Sequence record: OR062524 | Source: Escherichia phage vB_EcoM_3A1_SA_NWU | Strand: one strand, 5' to 3' | Length of the DNA: 64,000 nucleotides | Part shown: piece by piece, positions 398 to 25,173 of the stretch | How positions within the stretch are numbered: the stretch's first letter is position 1 | How the letters are laid out: each line of letters starts with the position of its first letter | Notes under the pieces: model-generated | Seen by the model: only the letters and a program-made list of their open reading frames with translations | Databases searched by the model: none | Told to the model about the DNA's origin: nothing | Translations under genes and position numbers: made by a program

Positions 398-1272
398 TTT
401 CCCTCCGCTAATTTGAGTAGGTATTGCCCGTACTCTGTTTTCTTCAGTGAGTTTCCATGGTAGACCAAAGTCTCTAAAGAAATCCACCCTTTTTTGAAAG
501 CAATTTCTTCCAGGCACGCAATCTTCAATCCTTGACAGTTCTCAATAGTCTGCACGAATTGACCAGCTTCCATCAGACTGGCGTGTGTTCCTGTGTCAAG
601 CCAAGTAAATCCTCGTCCGAGAACTTCTACTTGTAACTTCCTGTCTTCGAGGTAGCTGCGATTGATATCGGTGATCTCCAGTTCTCCACGCGCGGAAGGG
701 GTTACTTCTAATGCACGTTGAATAACAGAGTTATCATAGAAATACAAACCTGTGACAGCATAATCTGATTTAGGATTTTCAGGTTTCTCTTCAATAGAAA
801 TAACTTGACGATTACTCCCAAATTCAACCACACCGAATCGTTCAGGATCTTTCACCAAACACCCGAAGATACAAGCTCCGCCCCAAACATCTACCATCTC
901 ACTAGCGTTAATCAGTAGTTTACCAAAGCTTTGTCCGAAGAATAGGTTGTCACCTAAAATAAGAGCAACAGAGTCTTCTCCGATAAAATCTTTACCGATG
1001 ATGAAAGCGTCCGCAAGACCTCGTGGCTCGGATTGGATTGCGTAAGTGAGTTTTATCCCAAACATAGACCCATCTCCAAGAAGATGCTCAAAGTCTTCCT
1101 GATCGCCTGGTGTGGTGATGATTAAGATATCCTTAATGTCAGCCAACATCAATACCGATAAGGGGTAGTAGATCATGGGTTTGTCATACACAGGGAGCAA
1201 TTGCTTGCTCACACTGCGTGTTACCGGATGAAGGCGGGTTCCACTTCCTCCCGCCAAAATAATACCTTTCAT
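394..1272 (-). CDS. rmlA: glucose-1-phosphate thymidylyltransferase (RmlA)
   Basis: 292 aa; N-terminal [18 protein letters not shown]...[18 protein letters not shown] is the classic RmlA nucleotidyltransferase signature. Confidence 0.9.
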
Positions 1273-1280
1273 AACCCTCC

Positions 1281-2273
1281 TTAAATCTTCTTACTCCACC
1301 ATTGAGGGTTGTTTAAGTACCATTCAATCGTTGAGTAGAGATCTTGTTCAAATGTAGAGTTTGCACTCCAACCCAGTTCAGACTCTATTTTAGAAGGATT
1401 GATTTCATAACGCAAGTCATGTCCTTTACGATCTTCAACAAAAGTTATCAAGTTGGAAGAAGGGTAGGTTCCTGCTTCTGGATGTACAGCATCCATGTAG
1501 TCACAAACCATATAGATGATCTCCATATTGGTTTTGGGATTACGTGTTCCAACATTATACGTTTGACCTGGTTCTCCACCTGTTGCCACTTGAAGAATAG
1601 CTCGCGCATGATCCTCAACAAAAAGCCAGTCTCGCACCTGATCGCCTTTACCATACACCGGAATCTCTTTATTCGTCAAGATACTTGTGATGATTTTTGG
1701 GATCAGCTTTTCTGGATGTTGATAAGGTCCAAAGTTATTGGAGCAGTTGGTTATCACAACAGGTAAACCGTAGGTACGGTACCAAGCTTTCACAAGATGG
1801 TCAGATGCTGCCTTAGACGCACTGTACGGGCTTGAAGGGGCATAAGCTGTCTCTTCGGTAAAGGGAACGCCAGAGTCTGCCATATCGCCGTACACTTCGT
1901 CTGTGGAGACATGTACGAACATCTTAAGTTTATTTTTTGGGAGGAGCCTTGCAGCTTCCAATAAATTGTATGTACCAATAATATTGGAGTCGATGAAAAC
2001 TCGTGGATTCTTGATAGAATTATCCACATGACTCTCTGCCGCTAAGTGAATGATGAAATCGGGATTGCACTCTACTACTAAACTTTTGACCTGGGTTTCG
2101 TTTGCCAAATCTGTTATGCTTAGTTTAACGTGAGTGATATCGCCTACATTCTCAATATCTGCTGCATAGCCCATCTTATCAACGACAAAAACTTCGTTAT
2201 TGGGATCTTGACAAAGAGAGCGCACCACGGCACTCCCAATAAAACCAAGACCACCTGTTACCAGATAGCGCAT
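1281..2273 (-). CDS. rmlB: dTDP-glucose 4,6-dehydratase (RmlB)
   Basis: 330 aa; Rossmann GGLGFIGS, catalytic YSASK motif, short-chain dehydratase length. Confidence 0.9.
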
Positions 2274-10334: not shown

Positions 10335-10358
10335 TAAAAAAGGGAGCAATAAGCTCCC
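10333..10358 (-). terminator. intrinsic terminator (GGGAGC-loop-GCTCCC plus T6)
   Basis: Reverse complement cagggagcttattgctcccttttttattg just after the stop of the 10365..11324 gene. Confidence 0.65.
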
Positions 10359-10364
10359 TGATTA

Positions 10365-11324
10365 TTAGATTCCAATAATAGTTGCTGCTCGTTTATCTTT
10401 GGATCTGGTGTTTGCTCTACTACGTGACAAACCTCCACAAGATTCACAACGAATGATATCGAAAGAACTTACCGCAGTGTGGTATTGCTTACCAGTAACA
10501 ACGTGAACATGATCACTGCCGCAACGAGAACAACGGACTTTCTCATCTGGGTAATAAGCGGATAAGTTAGGATGCTGTGGAATCCACGGAAGGATTTTCA
10601 TATACAAATCACGGAGTGAAACAACATCACCGTCATTGTAAATCTGCATACGTTCAAAAGCATCACGATCACCTTCACAACATGCTTTCCATAAAGGGAA
10701 CCCCTCGTTATCCAGTTTTTCACTTTCTGTTTCGAAATATGCTCCCATTTCTTTAAGGGAGTTGGAAGGAAGTGCAAATTGTTTCTTAGCTGCCTTCAAT
10801 GTATCAACAACTACATAATTAGAAGGAGGAGCCATATCGTGATATGCAAATCGTTGGTTAATGTATGCACGGTCAAACTTATATCCGTTGTGTGCCACAA
10901 CTACATCTGCCTCATTCAGAAGGTTCCAAAGATCTTGGCAAAGCTCCCAATCATCTGTATGATCAATATCAAAAAGAGGATAAGAAGACAAGTTCTTACC
11001 TTCCACTTCACCAGTATACAGGTCGGCAGAAGAGTAAGATAACAAATAACCCCTACGAATTACTTGATCTGGAGAAATGAAGGCTTTGAATCGACGGAAA
11101 GTATATGCAATCTCTGGTGCAGTTTCAACATCAATAATTTTAATAACTGGTTGTTTCTTTTTAACTGGCTCTTGTTTACTTGCTCCGAATCGTGCAAGGA
11201 AATCGTTCACTGTGCTTTTTCTTGTTGGACTACCTAAAACAATTGCTGCAATATTGCGAGAAGACATACCCTCTGCACTCATACTAAGGATATCTGCTTT
11301 CTGCTCTTCTGTTAATCTGCTCAC
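10365..11324 (-). CDS. DEDD-type 3'-5' exonuclease with N-terminal HTH and C-terminal zinc finger
   Basis: 319 aa; IDVETAP...HNGYKFD exonuclease motifs; N-terminal helix-turn-helix-like segment; C-terminal CSRCG...CESCGG. Confidence 0.5.
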   Translation of the reverse strand: MSRLTEEQKADILSMSAEGMSSRNIAAIVLGSPTRKSTVNDFLARFGASKQEPVKKKQPVIKIIDVETAPEIAYTFRRFKAFISPDQVIRRGYLLSYSSADLYTGEVEGKNLSSYPLFDIDHTDDWELCQDLWNLLNEADVVVAHNGYKFDRAYINQRFAYHDMAPPSNYVVVDTLKAAKKQFALPSNSLKEMGAYFETESEKLDNEGFPLWKACCEGDRDAFERMQIYNDGDVVSLRDLYMKILPWIPQHPNLSAYYPDEKVRCSRCGSDHVHVVTGKQYHTAVSSFDIIRCESCGGLSRSRANTRSKDKRAATIIGI

Positions 11325-12010
11325 TCTGCCTCCTGTTGCGAGATGTATGACTGAAGCATACTCTCAAATGTTGTATCGTCATTATCCCAGCGTTTCATGT
11401 ATACCAACTGGAAAATTGTTTCTATCCATTCATCTGTTGTCATATGGACTTCTTCTCCATCCCAAGAAGTAAAATTAACACCATCTGGGAACCATGAGTA
11501 GTAAGTATCTTTAACTGTTTGGAAAAGTTCTGCTTGAGTTTTACAAGCTGAAAGAAGATTAAAACAAGTAATATCTCCGAACTTAATATCAAAATCTTGA
11601 TAAGGTCGGATACTATCTGTTTTATCTCCCATTAGCATCTGATATGCTAACCAGTAACTGCCCCAACCTTTAACTTCTTTCTTTTTACCTTTATCTACGA
11701 TCCATATGTCGCCAATAGACTCGTCAATAAGAATTATATCTGGATTTTTAAATACTCCATCCTCTTTGTAGAAATTAAAAAGGATACTAGGAGTATGTAA
11801 ACTATCTTTATCTATAGATACAACGATATAAGAAAATTTACCCGTCCTTTTATAATCTTTATAACCTTGGAAACCATACTTCTCTAACTCATCATCAGCT
11901 TCTATTACAGTAACAACATCACCATTGTGGAACTCCACAAGATAATCTTTGGTTTCTGAAAGCTGGAGTGGTTTGATATCTAATCGTTCAGATTTATATT
12001 CTACAGGCAT
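11321..12010 (-). CDS. hypothetical protein (229 aa from first ATG; frame stays open 147 codons further upstream)
   Basis: ORF track; own translation of upstream in-frame region shows protein-like sequence including GVIGVGKT (P-loop-like) and no ATG/GTG/TTG. Confidence 0.5.
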   Translation of the reverse strand: MPVEYKSERLDIKPLQLSETKDYLVEFHNGDVVTVIEADDELEKYGFQGYKDYKRTGKFSYIVVSIDKDSLHTPSILFNFYKEDGVFKNPDIILIDESIGDIWIVDKGKKKEVKGWGSYWLAYQMLMGDKTDSIRPYQDFDIKFGDITCFNLLSACKTQAELFQTVKDTYYSWFPDGVNFTSWDGEEVHMTTDEWIETIFQLVYMKRWDNDDTTFESMLQSYISQQEAE

Positions 12011-12451
12011 TTTGAAGGCGTGTCTGAAAGTTTTTCCTACGCCAATAACTCCGCAATATTTTTCTAAACGTAGATGTTTTAGAATACCTAAGACTTTTGT
12101 TTTAGCTGCTTGGAAGGTGTGTCCGATATCTTCTGGCGGATATTGCTTATCAATGATTTCGAACTCTTCCTTTGTGAAGGGACGTTTGTTTTTGGAGGCT
12201 CTTTCTGCATTTGTATCTCCTAGCCAACCTCCAATTTTAGTCTTGCTTTTACCCCAAAACTCTGTCTTATTTTTAAATTCCTTTTGAGCACCTGAAGGGA
12301 TGTGCTTCGCAATGATTGTTCTTTTCTCTAATGCAGACGCTGCTTGGAAAGCGATCTGATCATAATCAATTGCAGCTATTGTTTCTTCGTTGACATATAA
12401 ATGAAGATCTTCAGGTTTAATTAAAATATAACCGCTAATATTTCCCCCTAA

Positions 12452-12661
12452 TTATTCATCGTCATCCTCTGTTGAGAATGTTTTAGTATACGGACATTGA
12501 CGACTTTTCGGGATTGCTATAACTTCATCTTGGTTAGCGTTAGAATAGTAGCAATATTTTGTGTTGCCATTAACTTCAGAATCAGACAAGATTAAAGTAA
12601 TTTGACCTGCTGCTACTGTGAAACTAAAAGCTAAAAGAACGACTGTCAGAATCTTTTTCAT
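12452..12661 (-). CDS. small secreted or lipoprotein-like protein (69 aa)
   Basis: N-terminal MKKILTVVLLAFSFTVAAGQ signal-peptide-like; AGGAGG RBS. Confidence 0.5.
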   Translation of the reverse strand: MKKILTVVLLAFSFTVAAGQITLILSDSEVNGNTKYCYYSNANQDEVIAIPKSRQCPYTKTFSTEDDDE

Positions 12662-12670
12662 AACGCCTCC

Positions 12671-12700
12671 TAAAAAGCCTACCTCATTAAGTAGGTAGGC
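12671..12700 (-). terminator. hairpin (GCCTACCTAC..GGTAGGC) plus U5 in leader, overlapping the promoter start region
   Basis: Reverse complement gcctacctacttaatgaggtaggcttttt followed by AGGAGG RBS. Confidence 0.45.
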
Positions 12701-12729
12701 ATAATATCATAACTAATCCCGCAAGTCAA
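12701..12729 (-). promoter_or_regulatory. sigma70-like promoter TTGACT-N17-TATTAT
   Basis: Reverse complement TTGACTtgcgggattagttatgaTATTAT. Confidence 0.5.
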
Positions 12730-12733
12730 GAAC

Positions 12734-13612
12734 TTATTTAAGGATTGTTGCTTTGGTTAAATCTTCCATCAGACCTCGAATCTCATTGAAGCACAGAAGG
12801 ACTGAAGCTTCAATACTACCTTCTTCGTCTGCAAAATATTTCGGAAAACGTAGTTTAGAAAGTTTAAACTCTTTATCCACTACAAAATCTACAACACCGT
12901 CATATTCAAGACCGATTGCAACAACATCTTTACCATCTTCTTTTAGTTCGACAGCTTTAGACTCGTATAGAGATTCTTTACTCCAAACAACAACGCCCTC
13001 GCTATCCTCCATTTTGATATAATTTCCGAGAGTAATACGATCTGCTTCGTGATTCTCCAGCAATTCACCAAAACCTTTTACAATAGCTTCTTCGTGCACA
13101 CTAAAACCTACCGAAGGGAAAGTCCCCAGGACGGAACGGAGGAAAGAAGTAATCTCTTCTGCAACCTTTTTACTTCCATTAAGAACATAAAGAAGATTCG
13201 TAGTTTTATCCAAGACAACATAGTTAAAGAAATCTTCAGGTTCTGTTTCAGGCAATAGTGCAAATTCAATATCTTCTTTCATTGCTTTGACTACTTCTTT
13301 ATCGACATAAAACTCTTTACCTTCGCTCTCCATGTCCTGACGCATTTCTTCTAGACGTTCATTCAGAATACGTTTAACTTTCTTTTTATCTACCTTCTTC
13401 ACAGATTGACCTACATTAAGCAGTTCAAGATCTGAAAACTCTTTTACAAATTTAGAGTCATCTTCGAAACGAACAAGACCGATAGTGTGTGACTGGGAGC
13501 CTTCTGCTGTTACAAATTCCAGAGGAATATCTGTAATGCTGTTAAGGGATGCTACAGAAGCATTGTCACCAACAACCATAGGCAGAGCGGATTTAAAAGA
13601 TTTTACAAACAT
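12734..13612 (-). CDS. RdgC-like recombination-associated protein
   Basis: 292 aa; segment LLPETEPEDFFNYVVLDKTTNLLYVLNGSKKVAEEITSFLRSVLGTFPSV parallels the E. coli RdgC core as recalled from memory. Confidence 0.5.
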   Translation of the reverse strand: MFVKSFKSALPMVVGDNASVASLNSITDIPLEFVTAEGSQSHTIGLVRFEDDSKFVKEFSDLELLNVGQSVKKVDKKKVKRILNERLEEMRQDMESEGKEFYVDKEVVKAMKEDIEFALLPETEPEDFFNYVVLDKTTNLLYVLNGSKKVAEEITSFLRSVLGTFPSVGFSVHEEAIVKGFGELLENHEADRITLGNYIKMEDSEGVVVWSKESLYESKAVELKEDGKDVVAIGLEYDGVVDFVVDKEFKLSKLRFPKYFADEEGSIEASVLLCFNEIRGLMEDLTKATILK

Positions 13613-13668
13613 GTTTCCTCCTATTTAATACATCTCACATTACCGCCCATAAAGGGCGGCTTACAACA

Positions 13669-14394
13669 TTACTTATTAATAATACCTGCAATATTAGGTT
13701 TGACAAAGGTCGATGGTTTCATGATCTTACCTTTATCATCAAAGAACACATACACTTTCTGTTTTTCATTATAAACAGCATGAACACCAGTGTATGCCCC
13801 TTCTGGACGATTGGCATTTCGTTCTTCAATTGCAGCGCATTCTTGTGCAATGGCTGAATCGATATCCGAAGTTTTCCAAGTTTTCAGCAACTGTTGTTTA
13901 GTTGGATACTTGGAATCATTACTTTTCAATACCTCTTTAATAACTTTCTTTTCTGGATATTTTGAACGGATTAGAGTGTCACGAGACATACGCATAATAC
14001 CAGCAGCCATTAGTGCCATTTGAACTGGCTCTGTAAATGTTTGTTCCAAAGCATCAAAATCAGTATACACAGTTGGAGTAAAAACATCGCCTACAGCATA
14101 GTCCAAGAAATTCATCGTATGTTCTTCACCAAAGAACATGTAGGTCAGATAACTGGATACTACAAAAATATCCGCTGCTGCATCCAAGAGTTCTACATGA
14201 TCGTTTACTTTCGCGGCTGTTTCATACTCTTTAAGCTCTTCACGAACGAATCCGATTTGGGACATAAATAGCTCTTGAGTGAATTCAGGTTGTTCACCAC
14301 CTCGTGCTTTAGCATTCCAATCAATCACGTGCTTCGCTGCATTTTTGAAAAATTCAGTATCGAACTTAATATCTTTAAAAAAATTCTCGATCAT
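13669..14394 (-). CDS. putative MazG-like nucleoside triphosphate pyrophosphohydrolase
   Basis: 241 aa; REELKEYETAAKVNDHVELLDAAADI resembles the EExxE...D metal-binding helix of all-alpha NTP pyrophosphatases. Confidence 0.35.
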   Translation of the reverse strand: MIENFFKDIKFDTEFFKNAAKHVIDWNAKARGGEQPEFTQELFMSQIGFVREELKEYETAAKVNDHVELLDAAADIFVVSSYLTYMFFGEEHTMNFLDYAVGDVFTPTVYTDFDALEQTFTEPVQMALMAAGIMRMSRDTLIRSKYPEKKVIKEVLKSNDSKYPTKQQLLKTWKTSDIDSAIAQECAAIEERNANRPEGAYTGVHAVYNEKQKVYVFFDDKGKIMKPSTFVKPNIAGIINK

Positions 14395-19417: not shown

Positions 19418-19888
19418 TTAAGCTGGCATGATTAAAAAAGAACTTTCCACTTCAAAATGCCAATCATCAACAAGCCCTGGTTCCCAATCCTTCTCTTCAT
19501 GGAAAGAGCAAATCCAACGGTACATACCTGGCGGTGTATTCTCAACATCTTCTGGCAACCCATAATCCAAAGCTGTCTTACCGTTCTCTGTAAAACTAGG
19601 ATGGAGATTAGGAGCCTTCAGTACAGAAACCATACCTCCAACATCCACAGCTACGATCCACTCTGTCATGTATGGGCTGTCATATTGAGGCTCATCAGAA
19701 CCTACCTCAACAGCCTCTGTGCGTAAGATGATAATAGCCTGCTCTGTGATTGGGGCTTTGACAATATAACCGTGGTCCTCAAAAAGATCGATAACCTCGA
19801 ACTCATCGCCGTTTTCGACACCATAACTCTTATTCAAAGAGATAAACTTCGGGTTATCATCGTAAGCTTTAGTTACTTTAATTCTCAT
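19418..19888 (-). CDS. hypothetical protein (156 aa)
   Basis: ORF track. Confidence 0.5.
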   Translation of the reverse strand: MRIKVTKAYDDNPKFISLNKSYGVENGDEFEVIDLFEDHGYIVKAPITEQAIIILRTEAVEVGSDEPQYDSPYMTEWIVAVDVGGMVSVLKAPNLHPSFTENGKTALDYGLPEDVENTPPGMYRWICSFHEEKDWEPGLVDDWHFEVESSFLIMPA

Positions 19889-20109
19889 TTTTCCTCCTTC
19901 ACTTTAACCTCAAATTCTACAGGATTACCCTCAATGTAAAAACACTGATACTCTGCCTTATCATCATCATCACGAGGCCAAGTTACCAAGGAGTTATAGC
20001 AATCTTCTGGTGCTTTGAAGATGGTTTTAGTCTCCACAGTAACATTCCCATTAAGTGTTGCCAATACCACCCACCCAGCTACAGGGATCATAGTGCCTCC
20101 ACTTTCCAC
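19885..20109 (-). CDS. hypothetical protein (74 aa)
   Basis: ORF track; 4-nt overlap with neighbour. Confidence 0.45.
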   Translation of the reverse strand: MESGGTMIPVAGWVVLATLNGNVTVETKTIFKAPEDCYNSLVTWPRDDDDKAEYQCFYIEGNPVEFEVKVKEEK

Positions 20110-20270
20110 GTTTTACCATTATCAACCAAGGTTTTTGCTACAGCATACTCCTTCCCATTAATAATGAAATAATAAACTATAAAAGATTTTCCGATTGTTA
20201 CTGTCTTAGTAACCTCTACACGTTTAACACCTTGCATGTATTTCGCCTTACCGGAATAAAGTAAAATCAT
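20088..20270 (-). CDS. hypothetical protein (60 aa)
   Basis: ORF track. Confidence 0.4.
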   Translation of the reverse strand: MILLYSGKAKYMQGVKRVEVTKTVTIGKSFIVYYFIINGKEYAVAKTLVDNGKTWKVEAL

Positions 20271-23160: not shown

Positions 23161-23235
23161 GGCCCTGTAGCTCAATGGGAGAGCTGTCGGCTCATAACCG
23201 ATAGGTAGCTGGATCGAAACCAGCCAGGGCCACCA
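23161..23235 (+). tRNA. tRNA-Met (anticodon CAU), CCA encoded
   Basis: Manual fold: acceptor GGCCCTG/CAGGGCC, anticodon loop CTCATAA, T-arm GCTGG-ATCGAAA-CCAGC. Confidence 0.8.
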
Positions 23236-23237
23236 AA

Positions 23238-23312
23238 GTCTTTATGGTGTAATGGATAGCACAGGAGTCTTCTAAACTCTTAGTCAAGGTTCGATTCCTT
23301 GTAAAGACACCA
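23238..23312 (+). tRNA. tRNA-Arg (anticodon UCU), CCA encoded
   Basis: Manual fold: acceptor GTCTTTA/TAAAGAC, anticodon loop CTTCTAA, T-loop TTCGATT. Confidence 0.75.
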
Positions 23313-23508
23313 GAACATTTTAACATGAATTAGCTCAAGTGATTTGAACCCACTACTGATCATGGTGGCAGAGAATGAGGCAAGTATGTCAGACATTATA
23401 AACAAAGGCCACGGTTATATTAGAAGACATAAATGCTCGAAGAGCACCGTTCGTGGAGAACGGGGGTTGGTGGAGTCACCATTCATGGTAAAATGTTTTA
23501 AAAAACTA

Positions 23509-23538
23509 TTGACAACAAACATTATTTTATGTTAGATT
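23509..23538 (+). promoter_or_regulatory. possible internal promoter TTGACA-N18-TAGATT before tRNA-Ser
   Basis: ttgacaacaaacattattttatgttagatt, about 10 nt before tRNA start. Confidence 0.35.
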
Positions 23539-23546
23539 ATAAGTAT

Positions 23547-23637
23547 GGAAGGGCAAATCGATGTGGCGACGAAAACGGTCTTGAAAACCGCCGAGCTTGA
23601 AAGAGCCTTGGGAGTTCGACTCTCCCTCCTTCCGCCA
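23547..23637 (+). tRNA. tRNA-Ser (anticodon UGA), long variable arm, CCA encoded
   Basis: Manual fold: acceptor GGAAGGG/TCCTTCC, anticodon loop CTTGAAA, T-arm GGGAG-TTCGACT-CTCCC. Confidence 0.75.
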
Positions 23638-23642
23638 GATTA

Positions 23643-23728
23643 GGTAGATTGGTGAAATGGTAGCCACGACAGTTTGCTAAACTGTAGTCGGAAACGGCGT
23701 GTAGGTTCGAGTCCTACATCTACCGCCA
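23643..23728 (+). tRNA. tRNA-Ser (anticodon GCU), long variable arm, CCA encoded
   Basis: Manual fold: acceptor GGTAGAT/ATCTACC, anticodon loop TTGCTAA, variable-arm hairpin with GAAA loop. Confidence 0.75.
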
Positions 23729-23858
23729 AGTTCTTTTTAATGTAGCTTACTTTAGCAGAGTAAATCTTCGGCAAGTGGCGGTAACCACTTTACCGATACC
23801 TCATAGTTAGTGGTGTGAACACTGGCTATTTTAAAAAGAATTTAAATATTAGTATTTA

Positions 23859-23946
23859 GGTGAGTTAATTCCGTAGGGGTAGCGGGGCAGACTGTAAATC
23901 TGTTATCATTGCGATTCGGGTGGTTCGACTCCATCACTCACCACCA
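23859..23946 (+). tRNA. tRNA-Tyr (anticodon GUA), class II, atypical 5-nt connector before D-stem
   Basis: Acceptor GGTGAGT/ACTCACC 7/7, anticodon loop CTGTAAA, T-loop TTCGACT, CCA encoded. Confidence 0.6.
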
Positions 23947-23952
23947 AATTAA

Positions 23953-24038
23953 GATGAGTTGGCTGAATGGTTTAAGCGGCGGACTGTTAATCCGTGTTCG
24001 AAAGAACAATATAGGTTCGAATCCTATACTCATCGCCA
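23953..24038 (+). tRNA. class II tRNA (long variable arm) with anticodon GUU (nominally Asn); identity uncertain
   Basis: Acceptor GATGAGT/ACTCATC, 3-bp D-stem, anticodon loop CTGTTAA, variable hairpin GTTC-GAAA-GAAC, T-arm ATAGG-TTCGAAT-CCTAT, CCA encoded. Confidence 0.55.
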
Positions 24039-24045
24039 GAATTAT

Positions 24046-24122
24046 GGACTTGTAGAGTTAAGGTAAACCCCCAGTCGCCAATAGGCTTCTGGAATTGCAG
24101 GTATCGAATCCTGCCGAGTCCC
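24046..24122 (+). ncRNA. tRNA-like element with intact acceptor pairing but no canonical anticodon arm
   Basis: GGACTTG...CGAGTCC acceptor pairing and T-arm-like GCAGG-tatcgaat-CCTGC (8-nt loop); no 5-bp/7-nt anticodon hairpin found by hand. Confidence 0.3.
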
Positions 24123-24128
24123 AGCATT

Positions 24129-24203
24129 GCTCCTATAGTATAATGGCTATTACAACGGTTTTGTAATCCGTGGATCTCTGTTCGATTCAGTGTGGGAGCA
24201 CCA
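24129..24203 (+). tRNA. tRNA-Thr (anticodon UGU), CCA encoded
   Basis: Acceptor GCTCCTA/TGGGAGC, anticodon loop TTTGTAA, T-loop TTCGATT. Confidence 0.65.
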
Positions 24204-24519
24204 ACACAACATTAAGAGCACTGTGATTGATCGTCGTATCCTGTGCACAAGGTCTGCTCGAAAGACAGTGTTCTTAGTATTGTGTTGATCACAAAAAGAG
24301 TCACCCGAAACTTGACCGGAGTAGGGTTGGATGGGGCAAAATGAGAAGCGGCTCTCCCATCGACAGCAACGAAGAATAATATTTGACTTTGGTTTTGTAT
24401 TATTTTAAGTTAGCTTACCGAACGTAGGGCTAGTCACCCAACGGGATACTCGTCACTGTCCCAATCAATAAAAGTCTTGACAACAAATAGTAAAATGTAG
24501 TATAGTAAATATATATGGC
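24204..24519 (+). ncRNA. 315-nt non-coding spacer with long-range pairing; candidate stable RNA
   Basis: aagagcactgtg ... acagtgttctt pairing, repeated agtcaccc(g/a)aac motif; no ORF or tRNA fold. Confidence 0.25.
24477..24506 (+). promoter_or_regulatory. sigma70-like promoter TTGACA-N18-TATAGT before tRNA-Gly
   Basis: cttgacaacaaatagtaaaatgtagtatagt. Confidence 0.4.
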
Positions 24520-24593
24520 GTTCTTGGTGTAGCGGTAGCATTCCGTCCTTCCAAGTCGGCGGCACGAGTTCGATCCTCGTAGAACGCTCCAAA
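24520..24593 (+). tRNA. tRNA-Gly (anticodon UCC), CCA encoded
   Basis: Acceptor GCGTTCT/AGAACGC, anticodon loop CTTCCAA, T-arm ACGAG-TTCGATC-CTCGT, discriminator U. Confidence 0.75.
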
Positions 24594-24689
24594 TTATTTA
24601 ATAAAGGGTTGCCAGAAAACTTTCTCTTTTACTCATGGTTTTCTCCTTCTCTCACACTTCTTCTGGTTGCCCTTCATTAAATGATTTAT

Positions 24690-24765
24690 TGGTTTGTAGT
24701 GTAGTCCGGTAGCACACGACACTTTGACTGTCGTAGGTTTGGTTCAAATCCAGACAGACCAGCCA
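24690..24765 (+). tRNA. tRNA-Gln (anticodon UUG), U1-A72, CCA encoded
   Basis: Acceptor TGGTTTG/CAGACCA, anticodon stem CGACA/TGTCG with loop CTTTGAC. Confidence 0.75.
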
Positions 24766-24858
24766 TATAACAAAGGTGAGTCACTACCTTAAGTGTGAAG
24801 TTAAAAACGAGGAGCCGCCGAACACTTTCTTTTGCGGTGTACCTTTAGAATGTTATCA

Positions 24859-24935
24859 CGGGACGTAGCACAGCTTGGTAGTGCGCTCGCTTTGGGAGCG
24901 AGAGGTCGAGTGTTCGAATCACTCCGTCCCGACCA
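24859..24935 (+). tRNA. tRNA-Pro (anticodon UGG), CCA encoded
   Basis: Acceptor CGGGACG/CGTCCCG, anticodon stem CTCGC/GCGAG loop TTTGGGA. Confidence 0.8.
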
Positions 24936-24941
24936 ATTAAA

Positions 24942-25015
24942 TGTTTCGTAGTTCAATGGTAGAACCCACGACTGATAATCGTGAGACACAAGTTCGATTC
25001 TTGTCGAAACAACCA
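24942..25015 (+). tRNA. tRNA-Ile (anticodon GAU), CCA encoded
   Basis: Acceptor TGTTTCG/CGAAACA, anticodon stem CACGA/TCGTG loop CTGATAA. Confidence 0.75.
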
Positions 25016-25017
25016 GT

Positions 25018-25077
25018 TTCCCGTTAGACTTACAGGATAAGAGTTCCACAGCTTATTGTGATGCTGGTTCGAATCCA
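25018..25077 (+). ncRNA. tRNA-like element (good acceptor and T-arm, degenerate anticodon arm)
   Basis: TTCCCGT...ACGGGAT pairing, T-arm GCTGG-TTCGAAT-CCAGC, no canonical anticodon hairpin. Confidence 0.3.
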
Positions 25078-25094
25078 GCACGGGATACATAATA

Positions 25095-25173
25095 GCGGGA
25101 TAGAGGAGTCTGGTCGTCCTCGCCAGTTTCATATGCTGGAGATCATCGGTTCAAATCCGATTCCCGCCTCCAA
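25095..25173 (+). tRNA. tRNA with CAU anticodon (second Met-type or lysidine-Ile), A1/C72 mismatch, CCA encoded
   Basis: Acceptor AGCGGGA/TCCCGCC, anticodon stem CCAGT/GCTGG loop TTCATAT. Confidence 0.65.

What the first reader, a model, noticed from the sequence alone, without database searches (positions are those of the whole stretch)
11321..12661. Two ORFs in one frame separated by a single TAA; downstream gene has a 147-codon start-less upstream extension
From the TAA stop of the 69-aa signal-peptide ORF (12452..12454) the frame stays open for 147 codons with protein-like composition (including GVIGVGKT) and no ATG, GTG or TTG, then reaches the annotated ATG at 12010. Chance occurrence in AT-rich DNA is very unlikely. 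Options are a nonsense mutation or pseudogene, a sequencing error, programmed stop-codon read-through, or a non-canonical start.
Basis: seen in the sequence. Interest (0 to 1): 0.55.

Follow-up and report, generated by a model that had tools for sequence, protein, structure and literature searches.

The report
Phage exonuclease gene starting at ATT
The "start-less extension" is the real front end of a phage DNA-repair/replication nuclease whose gene begins with the rare, weak start codon ATT, so most database records cut off its first 143 residues; this is a known kind of oddity, kept across a whole phage group.

Summary
On the minus strand, the TAA at 12454..12452 ends a 69-aa signal-peptide ORF. 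The same frame then stays open for 147 codons with no ATG, GTG or TTG until the ATG at 12010.

The window is a Phapecoctavirus (phAPEC8-like coliphage). The extension is not a relic, an error or a read-through region. It is the N-terminal 143 residues of a 372-aa flap-endonuclease-family 5'-3' exonuclease. It holds invariant residues (D25, F55, R139) and the first strands of the fold.

Translation most likely starts at ATT 12439..12437. A strong Shine-Dalgarno sequence (AGGGGG) lies four bases upstream, the same geometry as other genes in the window.

Every relative with at least 49% identity (18 distinct start contexts) has ATT, ATC, ATA or CTG at this site. Relatives at 43% identity or less have ATG, GTG or TTG there. 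In relatives the upstream ORF often lies in another frame, or is a different gene.

GenBank record ESCO13 already annotates the 372-aa ATT-start product. Most other records give the truncated 229-aa product. This is a new member of a known kind (infC/pcnB-type near-cognate starts), of modest interest.

The parts
11321..12439 (-). Full-length flap-endonuclease-family 5'-3' exonuclease CDS: 372 codons from ATT 12439..12437 to stop TGA 11323..11321
12437..12439 (-). Proposed initiation codon ATT (AUU), read as fMet
   Evidence: It is the only start-like codon at Shine-Dalgarno distance. Relatives carry ATT, ATC, ATA or CTG at the homologous codon in the close clade, and ATG, GTG or TTG in more distant ones. 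In L015 an in-frame TAA lies directly before the homologous ATC. ESCO13 (KX552041.2) annotates its CDS from this ATT.
12444..12449 (-). Shine-Dalgarno sequence AGGGGG, four bases (AAAT) before the ATT
   Evidence: Duplex energy with the anti-SD is -9.3 kcal/mol. The median for 63 window genes is -8.8, and their most common spacing is the same.
12011..12436 (-). The 'start-less extension' (residues 2-143): first strands of the nuclease fold, catalytic D25 (12367..12365), D27, F55, and the R139 half of the FRxxxxPxxYK motif
   Evidence: Invariant and near-invariant columns in the 44-sequence alignment A1. Differences from relatives fall mostly at codon position 3, for example 16/9/65 at positions 1/2/3 against L018, with pN 0.09-0.26 against pS 0.65-0.81. 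pLDDT is 89-98 across this part.
12008..12010 (-). ATG used as the start in most GenBank records; it is internal Met144
   Evidence: No Shine-Dalgarno sequence upstream (+0.4 kcal/mol). It splits the conserved TFRHAFK-M-PVEYKSER motif. Records with the 229-aa call.
12452..12661 (-). Separate upstream gene: 69-aa protein with an N-terminal signal-peptide-like segment. Its TAA (12454..12452) lies 12 nt before the ATT
   Evidence: phrog_4641, E 7e-27. It has its own SD, AGGAGG-CGTT-ATG. It is conserved in relatives but sits in varying frames relative to the nuclease.
12677..12729 (-). Promoter-like site (TTGACT-17-TATTAT, 12729..12701) directly followed by a hairpin plus T-run (12700..12677), upstream of the 69-aa ORF
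   Evidence: Consensus scans only. The hairpin is annotated as a terminator in ASO2A and Schickermooser.
10365..11324 (-). Downstream DnaQ-like 3'-5' exonuclease gene. Its GTG start overlaps the nuclease stop (GTGA). A terminator-like hairpin follows at 10359..10341
   Evidence: ORF list. Homologous genes in related loci carry PF13482. Terminator scan.

Best explanation
The region encodes one intact 372-aa flap-endonuclease-family 5'-3' exonuclease. Translation begins at the near-cognate codon AUU (window 12439..12437, minus strand), four bases after a strong Shine-Dalgarno sequence and 12 nt after the stop of an unrelated small upstream gene. The initiator tRNA would read AUU as fMet, as it does in E. 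coli infC and pcnB.

Gene finders allow only ATG, GTG and TTG. They therefore fall back on internal Met144 (ATG 12010) and report a 229-aa fragment that lacks catalytic D25.

Shown here: the extension is coding, conserved and part of the fold; the SD and ATT have the geometry of real starts in this phage; the whole clade keeps a near-cognate codon at this site.

Inferred: the weak codon is kept by selection to hold synthesis of a potentially harmful nuclease low, possibly helped by coupling to the upstream ORF and possibly sensitive to IF3.
For: 1. The extension belongs to the protein.
- phrog_107 exonuclease matches residues 14-371.
- D25, F55 and R139 are invariant across 44 homologues.
- The AF2 model has pLDDT 95.9, with strands 16-25 and 127-137 inside the extension.
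- The profile aligns the FR..YK..R, EADD, DKD and GDxxDN motifs with the Taq 5' nuclease.

2. Purifying selection acts on the extension. Third-position differences dominate, and pN is far below pS.

3. Start geometry. AGGGGG-AAAT-ATT gives -9.3 kcal/mol, against a median of -8.8 and the same modal spacing for 63 window genes. ATG 12010 has no SD.

4. Comparative evidence.
- All 18 distinct start contexts with at least 49% identity carry ATT, ATC, ATA or CTG after a strong SD (-9.3 to -13.0). None has an SD-backed canonical start.
- Relatives at 43% identity or less carry ATG, GTG or TTG at the homologous codon (M/V/L-G-Y...).
- The near-cognate clade is monophyletic, with several codon switches inside it.
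- L015 has TAA immediately before its ATC.

5. ATT, ATC, ATA and CTG are exactly the four near-cognates measured at 1-2% of AUG in E. coli (bioRxiv 10.1101/063800). AUU starts are established for infC and pcnB, and AUU was 6-8 times weaker than AUG in a reporter (PMC3592434).

6. ESCO13 (KX552041.2 / YP_009786567.1; UniRef100 A0A1Q1N971, n=12) already annotates this exact 372-aa ATT-start product.
Against: - There is no experimental evidence (proteomics, ribosome profiling or toeprint) for this or any related phage.
- Near-cognate starts are weak, so the amount of product is unknown.
- Three of the four codons encode Ile. Conservation of that codon alone could reflect an amino-acid constraint if translation began upstream by an unknown route. 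Only L015 (stop directly upstream) and the homologous canonical starts argue directly against this.
- The loci are phylogenetically related, so 18 contexts are not 18 independent tests.
- The selective reason (low expression, IF3 sensing) is inferred, not tested.
- The window protein itself gets no Pfam PF02739 hit.
Confidence: 0.85

Rival explanations
1. Programmed read-through of the TAA: ribosomes translating the 69-aa ORF continue and make a fusion of about 445 aa carrying the nuclease.
For: In the window the two ORFs share a frame and are separated by one stop. The same holds in 9 of 17 related contexts. One database protein (P0005, 444 aa) looks like such a fusion.
Against: P0005 is an artefact: its DNA has TAG, which the gene caller read as Q. 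In 8 of 17 contexts the upstream stop is out of frame with the nuclease. L015 has two in-frame stops, TAG and TAA. In L023 and L024 the upstream gene is a methyltransferase or an HNH endonuclease. More distant homologues start at this exact position with ATG, GTG or TTG. A signal peptide fused to a DNA nuclease makes no functional sense (inference).
Confidence: 0.02
2. Pseudogene or nonsense mutation: an ancestral longer gene was broken, and only the 229-aa product from ATG 12010 (or nothing) is made.
For: Most GenBank annotations give the 229-aa product.
Against: The extension is under purifying selection across sequences whose synonymous sites are saturated. It holds invariant catalytic residues and core strands. 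ATG 12010 has no SD and splits a conserved motif. The 69-aa ORF is an independent family. A 229-aa fragment would lack D25 and two core strands.
Confidence: 0.02
3. A non-canonical start, but at a different codon inside the extension: for example ATT 12427 or 12421, or a leaderless or internal site before D25.
For: Several ATT, ATA and ATC codons lie between 12439 and the D25 codon. Nothing experimental fixes the N-terminus.
Against: These codons lie 15 nt or more from the SD, or have weak SD energies. Only the ATY/CTG directly after the SD is conserved in position in all 18 contexts and aligns with the canonical starts of the sister clade.
Confidence: 0.05
4. Initiation at the ATT is driven mainly by termination-reinitiation. 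Ribosomes finishing the upstream ORF, 12 nt away, restart at the weak codon, so nuclease output is tied to upstream ORF translation. This is a variant of the best explanation, not exclusive of it.
For: In all 17 related contexts an upstream ORF stops 1-18 nt before the near-cognate start, whatever that ORF is. In an infC-like junction, coupling about doubled AUU-initiated expression (PMC3592434).
Against: Tight gene packing is the norm in this phage, so proximity is not specific. The strong SD suggests that de novo 30S binding is possible. No structure sequesters the site in a significant way (fold z-score -1.26).
Confidence: 0.25
5. Sequencing or assembly error at the TAA or at a lost start codon.
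For: None beyond the oddity itself.
Against: There are 64 phage genomes from many laboratories with the same sequence at 98.9% identity or more, plus many metagenomic contigs with the same architecture.
Confidence: 0.005

Closest known systems
E. coli infC (IF3) and pcnB: chromosomal genes initiated at AUU
   Same: A near-cognate AUU start sits behind a functional Shine-Dalgarno sequence, close behind the stop of an upstream cistron (infC: UAA GGU AUU). The weak codon limits expression (PMC3592434; bioRxiv 10.1101/063800).
   Different: This is a phage nuclease gene. The codon varies among AUU, AUC, AUA and CUG across the clade. IF3-dependent autoregulation, which defines infC, has no obvious counterpart here and was not tested.
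Flap endonuclease / 5'-3' exonuclease family (T5 D15 FEN, T4 RNase H, E. coli ExoIX, Pol I 5' nuclease; Pfam PF02739)
   Different: The protein is larger (372 aa), with insertions in the N-terminal half (about residues 39-100). It scores below the Pfam threshold: no hit for the window protein, and 26-28 bits against a cut-off of 34.3 for distant homologues. The Asp equivalent to T5 D68 appears to be replaced (GVIGVG), by my own reading of the alignment. Activity is untested.
Homologous exonuclease of Vequintavirinae and related phages (rV5-like CarlMeissner bas48_0204, Cronobacter PBES02, Klebsiella Iguana)
   Same: Orthologous gene in the same neighbourhood, with the N-terminus at the homologous position (M/V/L-G-Y-P...).
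   Different: These use canonical ATG, GTG or TTG (about 9, 7 and 12 of 28 loci, by my own count of the listing) and are annotated full length.
ESCO13_00118 (AQM50955.1 / YP_009786567.1), GenBank KX552041.2
   Same: Identical 372-aa product annotated from the same ATT, with a ribosome-binding site feature.
   Different: This is an annotation only. The genome announcement does not mention it (PMC5374246), and most sister records do not follow it.

Membership tests
FEN / 5'-3' exonuclease superfamily | PIN-like FEN fold | tested here: met
FEN / 5'-3' exonuclease superfamily | Conserved metal-binding carboxylates and the FR..YK..R basic motif | tested here: met
   D25, R139, Y148, K149, E180, D182, D183, D210, K211, D212, D272 and D275 are invariant in A1. 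The motifs align with the Taq 5' nuclease. D25 and R139 lie in the unannotated extension.
FEN / 5'-3' exonuclease superfamily | Pfam PF02739 match above the gathering score | tested here: not met
   The window protein has no PF02739 hit at E<=1. Distant homologues score 25.9-28.3 bits against a cut-off of 34.3. PHROG 107 'exonuclease' is matched at 1e-55.
FEN / 5'-3' exonuclease superfamily | 5' nuclease activity on flaps or nicked DNA | not testable with these tools
   Needs biochemistry.
Genes with near-cognate (AUU-class) initiation codons (infC, pcnB type) | No in-frame canonical start upstream of essential residues, with an upstream in-frame stop bounding the ORF | tested here: met
   There is no ATG, GTG or TTG between TAA 12452 and the D25 codon. 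The same holds, or the only canonical codons lack an SD, in all 18 clade contexts.
Genes with near-cognate (AUU-class) initiation codons (infC, pcnB type) | Shine-Dalgarno sequence at functional spacing before the near-cognate codon | tested here: met
   -9.3 kcal/mol, with spacing equal to the mode of window genes. Relatives give -9.3 to -13.0.
Genes with near-cognate (AUU-class) initiation codons (infC, pcnB type) | Start codon restricted to the functional near-cognate set across homologues | tested here: met
   Only ATT, ATC, ATA and CTG are seen. This is the same four-codon class measured in E. coli.
Genes with near-cognate (AUU-class) initiation codons (infC, pcnB type) | Direct demonstration of initiation (N-terminal Met peptide, toeprint, initiation profiling) | not testable with these tools
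   No data found in the literature searches.
Genes with near-cognate (AUU-class) initiation codons (infC, pcnB type) | IF3-dependent discrimination or regulation of the start | not testable with these tools
   Needs genetics or in vitro translation.
Programmed stop-codon read-through | The two ORFs are kept in the same frame, with a single stop, across relatives | tested here: not met
   Frame offset is 0 in 9, 2 in 7 and 1 in 1 of 17 contexts. L015 has two in-frame stops. The upstream gene differs in L023 and L024.
Pseudogene | Relaxed constraint on the disrupted part | tested here: not met
   Differences by codon position are, for example, 16/9/65, and pN is far below pS in the extension.

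The most novel reading that the evidence does not exclude
The near-cognate start is a selectively maintained regulatory device. An entire phage clade keeps its FEN nuclease behind an AUU, AUC, AUA or CUG codon, so that synthesis responds to IF3 availability or to upstream-ORF translation during infection. This would be a viral analogue of infC-type control, and changing the codon to AUG would harm the phage.
Probability: 0.2. Interest if true: 0.6.

Novelty: new member of a known kind. Interest (0 to 1): 0.33.

Why it matters
It corrects a widespread annotation error. Most of the 64 Phapecoctavirus records, along with Justusliebigvirus records and many metagenomic gene calls, list a truncated nuclease that lacks a catalytic aspartate. 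Some also add a spurious 40-aa ORF inside the missing part.

It also gives a natural evolutionary example of a weak start codon being kept. The codon has changed several times, but only among the four near-cognates known to work in E. coli. That makes selection for weak initiation directly testable by swapping the codon in a tractable coliphage.

Tried and rejected
- Pfam on the extended protein gave nothing useful.
- A single-sequence PDB search gave no hits. The profile search gave only a weak Taq hit (E 0.075). Fold comparison was needed to place the protein.
- Rfam found no known RNA element in 11000..13800.
- RNA folding around the start showed no significant structure (z-score -1.26). 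There is therefore no support for a read-through or frameshift stimulator, or for a sequestered SD.
- The 444-aa 'fusion' protein P0005 looked like support for read-through, but it is a gene-caller artefact with TAG read as Gln.
- A scan of the window for other SD-backed near-cognate starts found none. The other hits are ATT codons lying directly before an ATG.
- dN/dS ratios could not be computed for most pairs because synonymous sites are saturated. Raw pS, pN and codon-position counts were used instead.
- Literature searches found no paper that discusses this start codon.
- I considered a phage-encoded special initiator tRNA, because the window holds two tRNA(CAU) genes. I did not pursue it.

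Full report
**Observation.** On the minus strand, a 69-aa ORF (12661..12452, MKKILTVVLLAFSF...) ends at TAA 12454..12452. The same frame then runs for 147 codons (12451..12011) without ATG, GTG or TTG, reaching the ATG at 12010 and a stop at 11323..11321. With the window's own codon usage, the chance of such a run is about 1.1e-3. The longest run inside 27 long window genes is 109 codons. Among 67 long open frames in the window, this is the longest start-less upstream extension.

**Origin and existing annotation.** The window is 100% identical to Escherichia phage vB_EcoM_Schickermooser. It is at least 98.9% identical to 64 Phapecoctavirus records (phAPEC8-like, Stephanstirmvirinae) across this region, which rules out a sequencing error. 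Most records annotate a 229-aa 'putative exonuclease' from ATG 12010. This holds for phAPEC8, Ro121lw, ASO2A, ESCO25, phAPEC8_ev052, the Schickermooser RefSeq record and EF1-1. They leave a 441-bp gap, and some fill it with a 40-aa ORF in another frame.

**What the extension is.**
- The frame from the TAA onward matches PHROG 107 'exonuclease' over residues 14-371 (E 1e-55). The extension alone matches at 5e-7.
- By tblastn, 900 phage records cover at least 80% of the extended frame.
- In a 44-sequence alignment, D25, F55 and R139 are invariant. D27, A34, E38, H46, S49, G50, T59, L73, N77, K113, G133 and F138 are near-invariant. All of these lie upstream of Met144.
- The annotated ATG splits the family motif TFRHAFK-M-PVEYKSER.
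- An AlphaFold2 model of the 372-aa protein has mean pLDDT 95.9, with core strands 16-25 and 127-137 inside the extension.
- A profile search aligns FR..YK..R, EADD, DKD and GDxxDN with the Taq 5' nuclease.
- Against seven relatives at 75-86% identity, differences in the extension fall mostly at third codon positions (for example 16/9/65). pN is 0.09-0.26 against pS 0.65-0.81.

The extension is therefore translated and essential. A 229-aa product would lack a catalytic aspartate and part of the fold.

**Where translation starts.**
- The sequence after the upstream stop reads TAA-TT-AGGGGG-AAAT-ATT-AGC-GGT-TAT.
- The ATT at 12439..12437 follows an SD with -9.3 kcal/mol of pairing to the anti-SD. 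The median for 63 window genes is -8.8, and they share the same modal spacing. The 69-aa ORF itself uses AGGAGG-CGTT-ATG.
- ATG 12010 has no SD (+0.4 kcal/mol).
- No other SD-backed near-cognate start exists in the 64-kb window.

**Comparative test.** I collected related loci from GenBank, IMG/VR and Logan/ENA assemblies. For each, I scored every in-frame start-like codon before the D25 equivalent.
- Every locus with at least 49% protein identity (18 distinct start contexts) has ATT, ATC, ATA or CTG 23-25 codons before D25. Each follows an SD of -9.3 to -13.0 kcal/mol.
- Any canonical codon in that interval has essentially no SD (-3.5 or weaker).
- Every locus at 43% identity or less has ATG, GTG or TTG at the homologous codon (M/V/L-G-Y-P, against I-S-G-Y or I-G-Y).
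- In L015, an in-frame TAA lies directly before the ATC.
- A neighbour-joining tree shows the near-cognate clade as monophyletic, with several switches among the four codons.
- These four codons are exactly the near-cognate class that initiates at 1-2% of AUG in E. coli (bioRxiv 10.1101/063800).
- AUU starts are established for infC and pcnB. AUU was 6-8 times weaker than AUG in a reporter, and about twofold stronger when coupled to an upstream cistron (PMC3592434).

**Rivals.**
- *Read-through* fails. The upstream stop is in frame with the nuclease in only 9 of 17 contexts. L015 has two in-frame stops. In L023 and L024 the upstream gene is a methyltransferase or an HNH endonuclease. The one apparent fusion protein (P0005, 444 aa) has TAG in its DNA, and the gene caller read it as Gln.
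- *Pseudogene* fails on selection and structure.
- *RNA elements:* no Rfam family or significant RNA structure lies at the junction.
- *A different non-canonical start inside the extension* cannot be excluded without proteomics, but it lacks SD support and positional conservation.
- *Termination-reinitiation* from the upstream ORF (stop 1-18 nt upstream in all contexts) may contribute. It is compatible with the main explanation.

**Likely operon.** The order on the minus strand is as follows:
- promoter-like site 12729..12701;
- hairpin 12700..12677;
- 69-aa ORF;
- exonuclease (ATT 12439 to TGA 11321);
- 3'-5' exonuclease, with its GTG start overlapping the nuclease stop (11324);
- terminator-like hairpin 10359..10341.

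The promoter and terminator calls are consensus matches only.

**Novelty.** The exact 372-aa ATT-start product is already annotated for phage ESCO13 (KX552041.2, ESCO13_00118; YP_009786567.1; UniRef100 A0A1Q1N971, n=12). The genome announcement does not mention it (PMC5374246). I found no paper discussing it. The mechanism is a known kind. What appears undescribed is that the whole clade keeps a near-cognate start at this gene.

**Verdict.** This is an ordinary gene with an unusual but known type of start. It is a useful annotation correction and a modestly interesting case of a conserved weak start. Confidence in the ATT start is about 0.85. The selective rationale (low or regulated nuclease expression) is inference.

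Noticed in passing
window 12088..12210 (-): A 40-aa ORF annotated as 'hypothetical protein' in phAPEC8 (phAPEC8_00121) and Ro121lw lies inside the exonuclease's unannotated N-terminal part, in another frame. It is almost certainly a spurious call made to fill the gap.
   Followed up: partly
L016 1501..2835 (Logan SRR30397360 contig), protein P0005: The protein database holds a 444-aa 'fusion' of the small ORF and the nuclease. The DNA has an in-frame TAG, which the gene caller translated as Gln (an alternative code was applied). It is a database artefact, not a natural fusion.
   Followed up: yes
L004 (ECGD1, Justusliebigvirus) 697..1731; proteins P0001-P0036: Relatives are also mis-started. 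ECGD1 is annotated from an internal GTG that removes D25. Many metagenomic gene calls begin at SD-less TTG, GTG or ATG codons 9-33 codons downstream of the SD-backed ATT or ATC.
   Followed up: yes
loci L005-L009, L046-L069 (sister clade, 37-43% identity): Where the orthologue uses a canonical start, TTG and GTG predominate. By my own count of the listing, there are about 12 TTG and 7 GTG against 9 ATG in 28 loci, which are not independent. This suggests a general preference for weak initiation of this nuclease.
   Followed up: partly
window 23161..25172 (+): A cluster of 10 tRNA genes (Met, Arg, Ser, Asn, Thr, Gly, Gln, Pro, Ile-GAT, Met). Two have a CAU anticodon. By my own reading, neither has the three G:C pairs of an initiator anticodon stem, and the second (25094..25172) seems to have an A1-C72 mismatch. 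Whether either affects initiation at non-AUG codons is unknown.
   Followed up: no
window 19882..20172 (+): The second-longest start-less open frame in the window (96 codons, with a canonical start only 2 codons from the end). The translation is low-complexity, and the frame lies antisense to the SD region of a minus-strand gene. It looks non-coding.
   Followed up: partly
window 12677..12729 (-): A good sigma-70-like promoter match (TTGACT-17-TATTAT, with TG) abuts the 5' arm of the hairpin that others annotate as the terminator of the RdgC-like gene. A transcript starting there would begin inside or just before the hairpin.
   Followed up: no
window 11321..11324 (-): The nuclease stop and the GTG start of the downstream DnaQ-like 3'-5' exonuclease overlap as GTGA. 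This suggests that the two nuclease genes are translationally coupled.
   Followed up: no
GenBank records: Records labelled Campylobacter phage (A150, B15), Acinetobacter phage ABPW7 and Klebsiella phage ZCKP1 are 77-99% identical to coliphage genomes in this region. Their host labels may not reflect distinct phage lineages.
   Followed up: no
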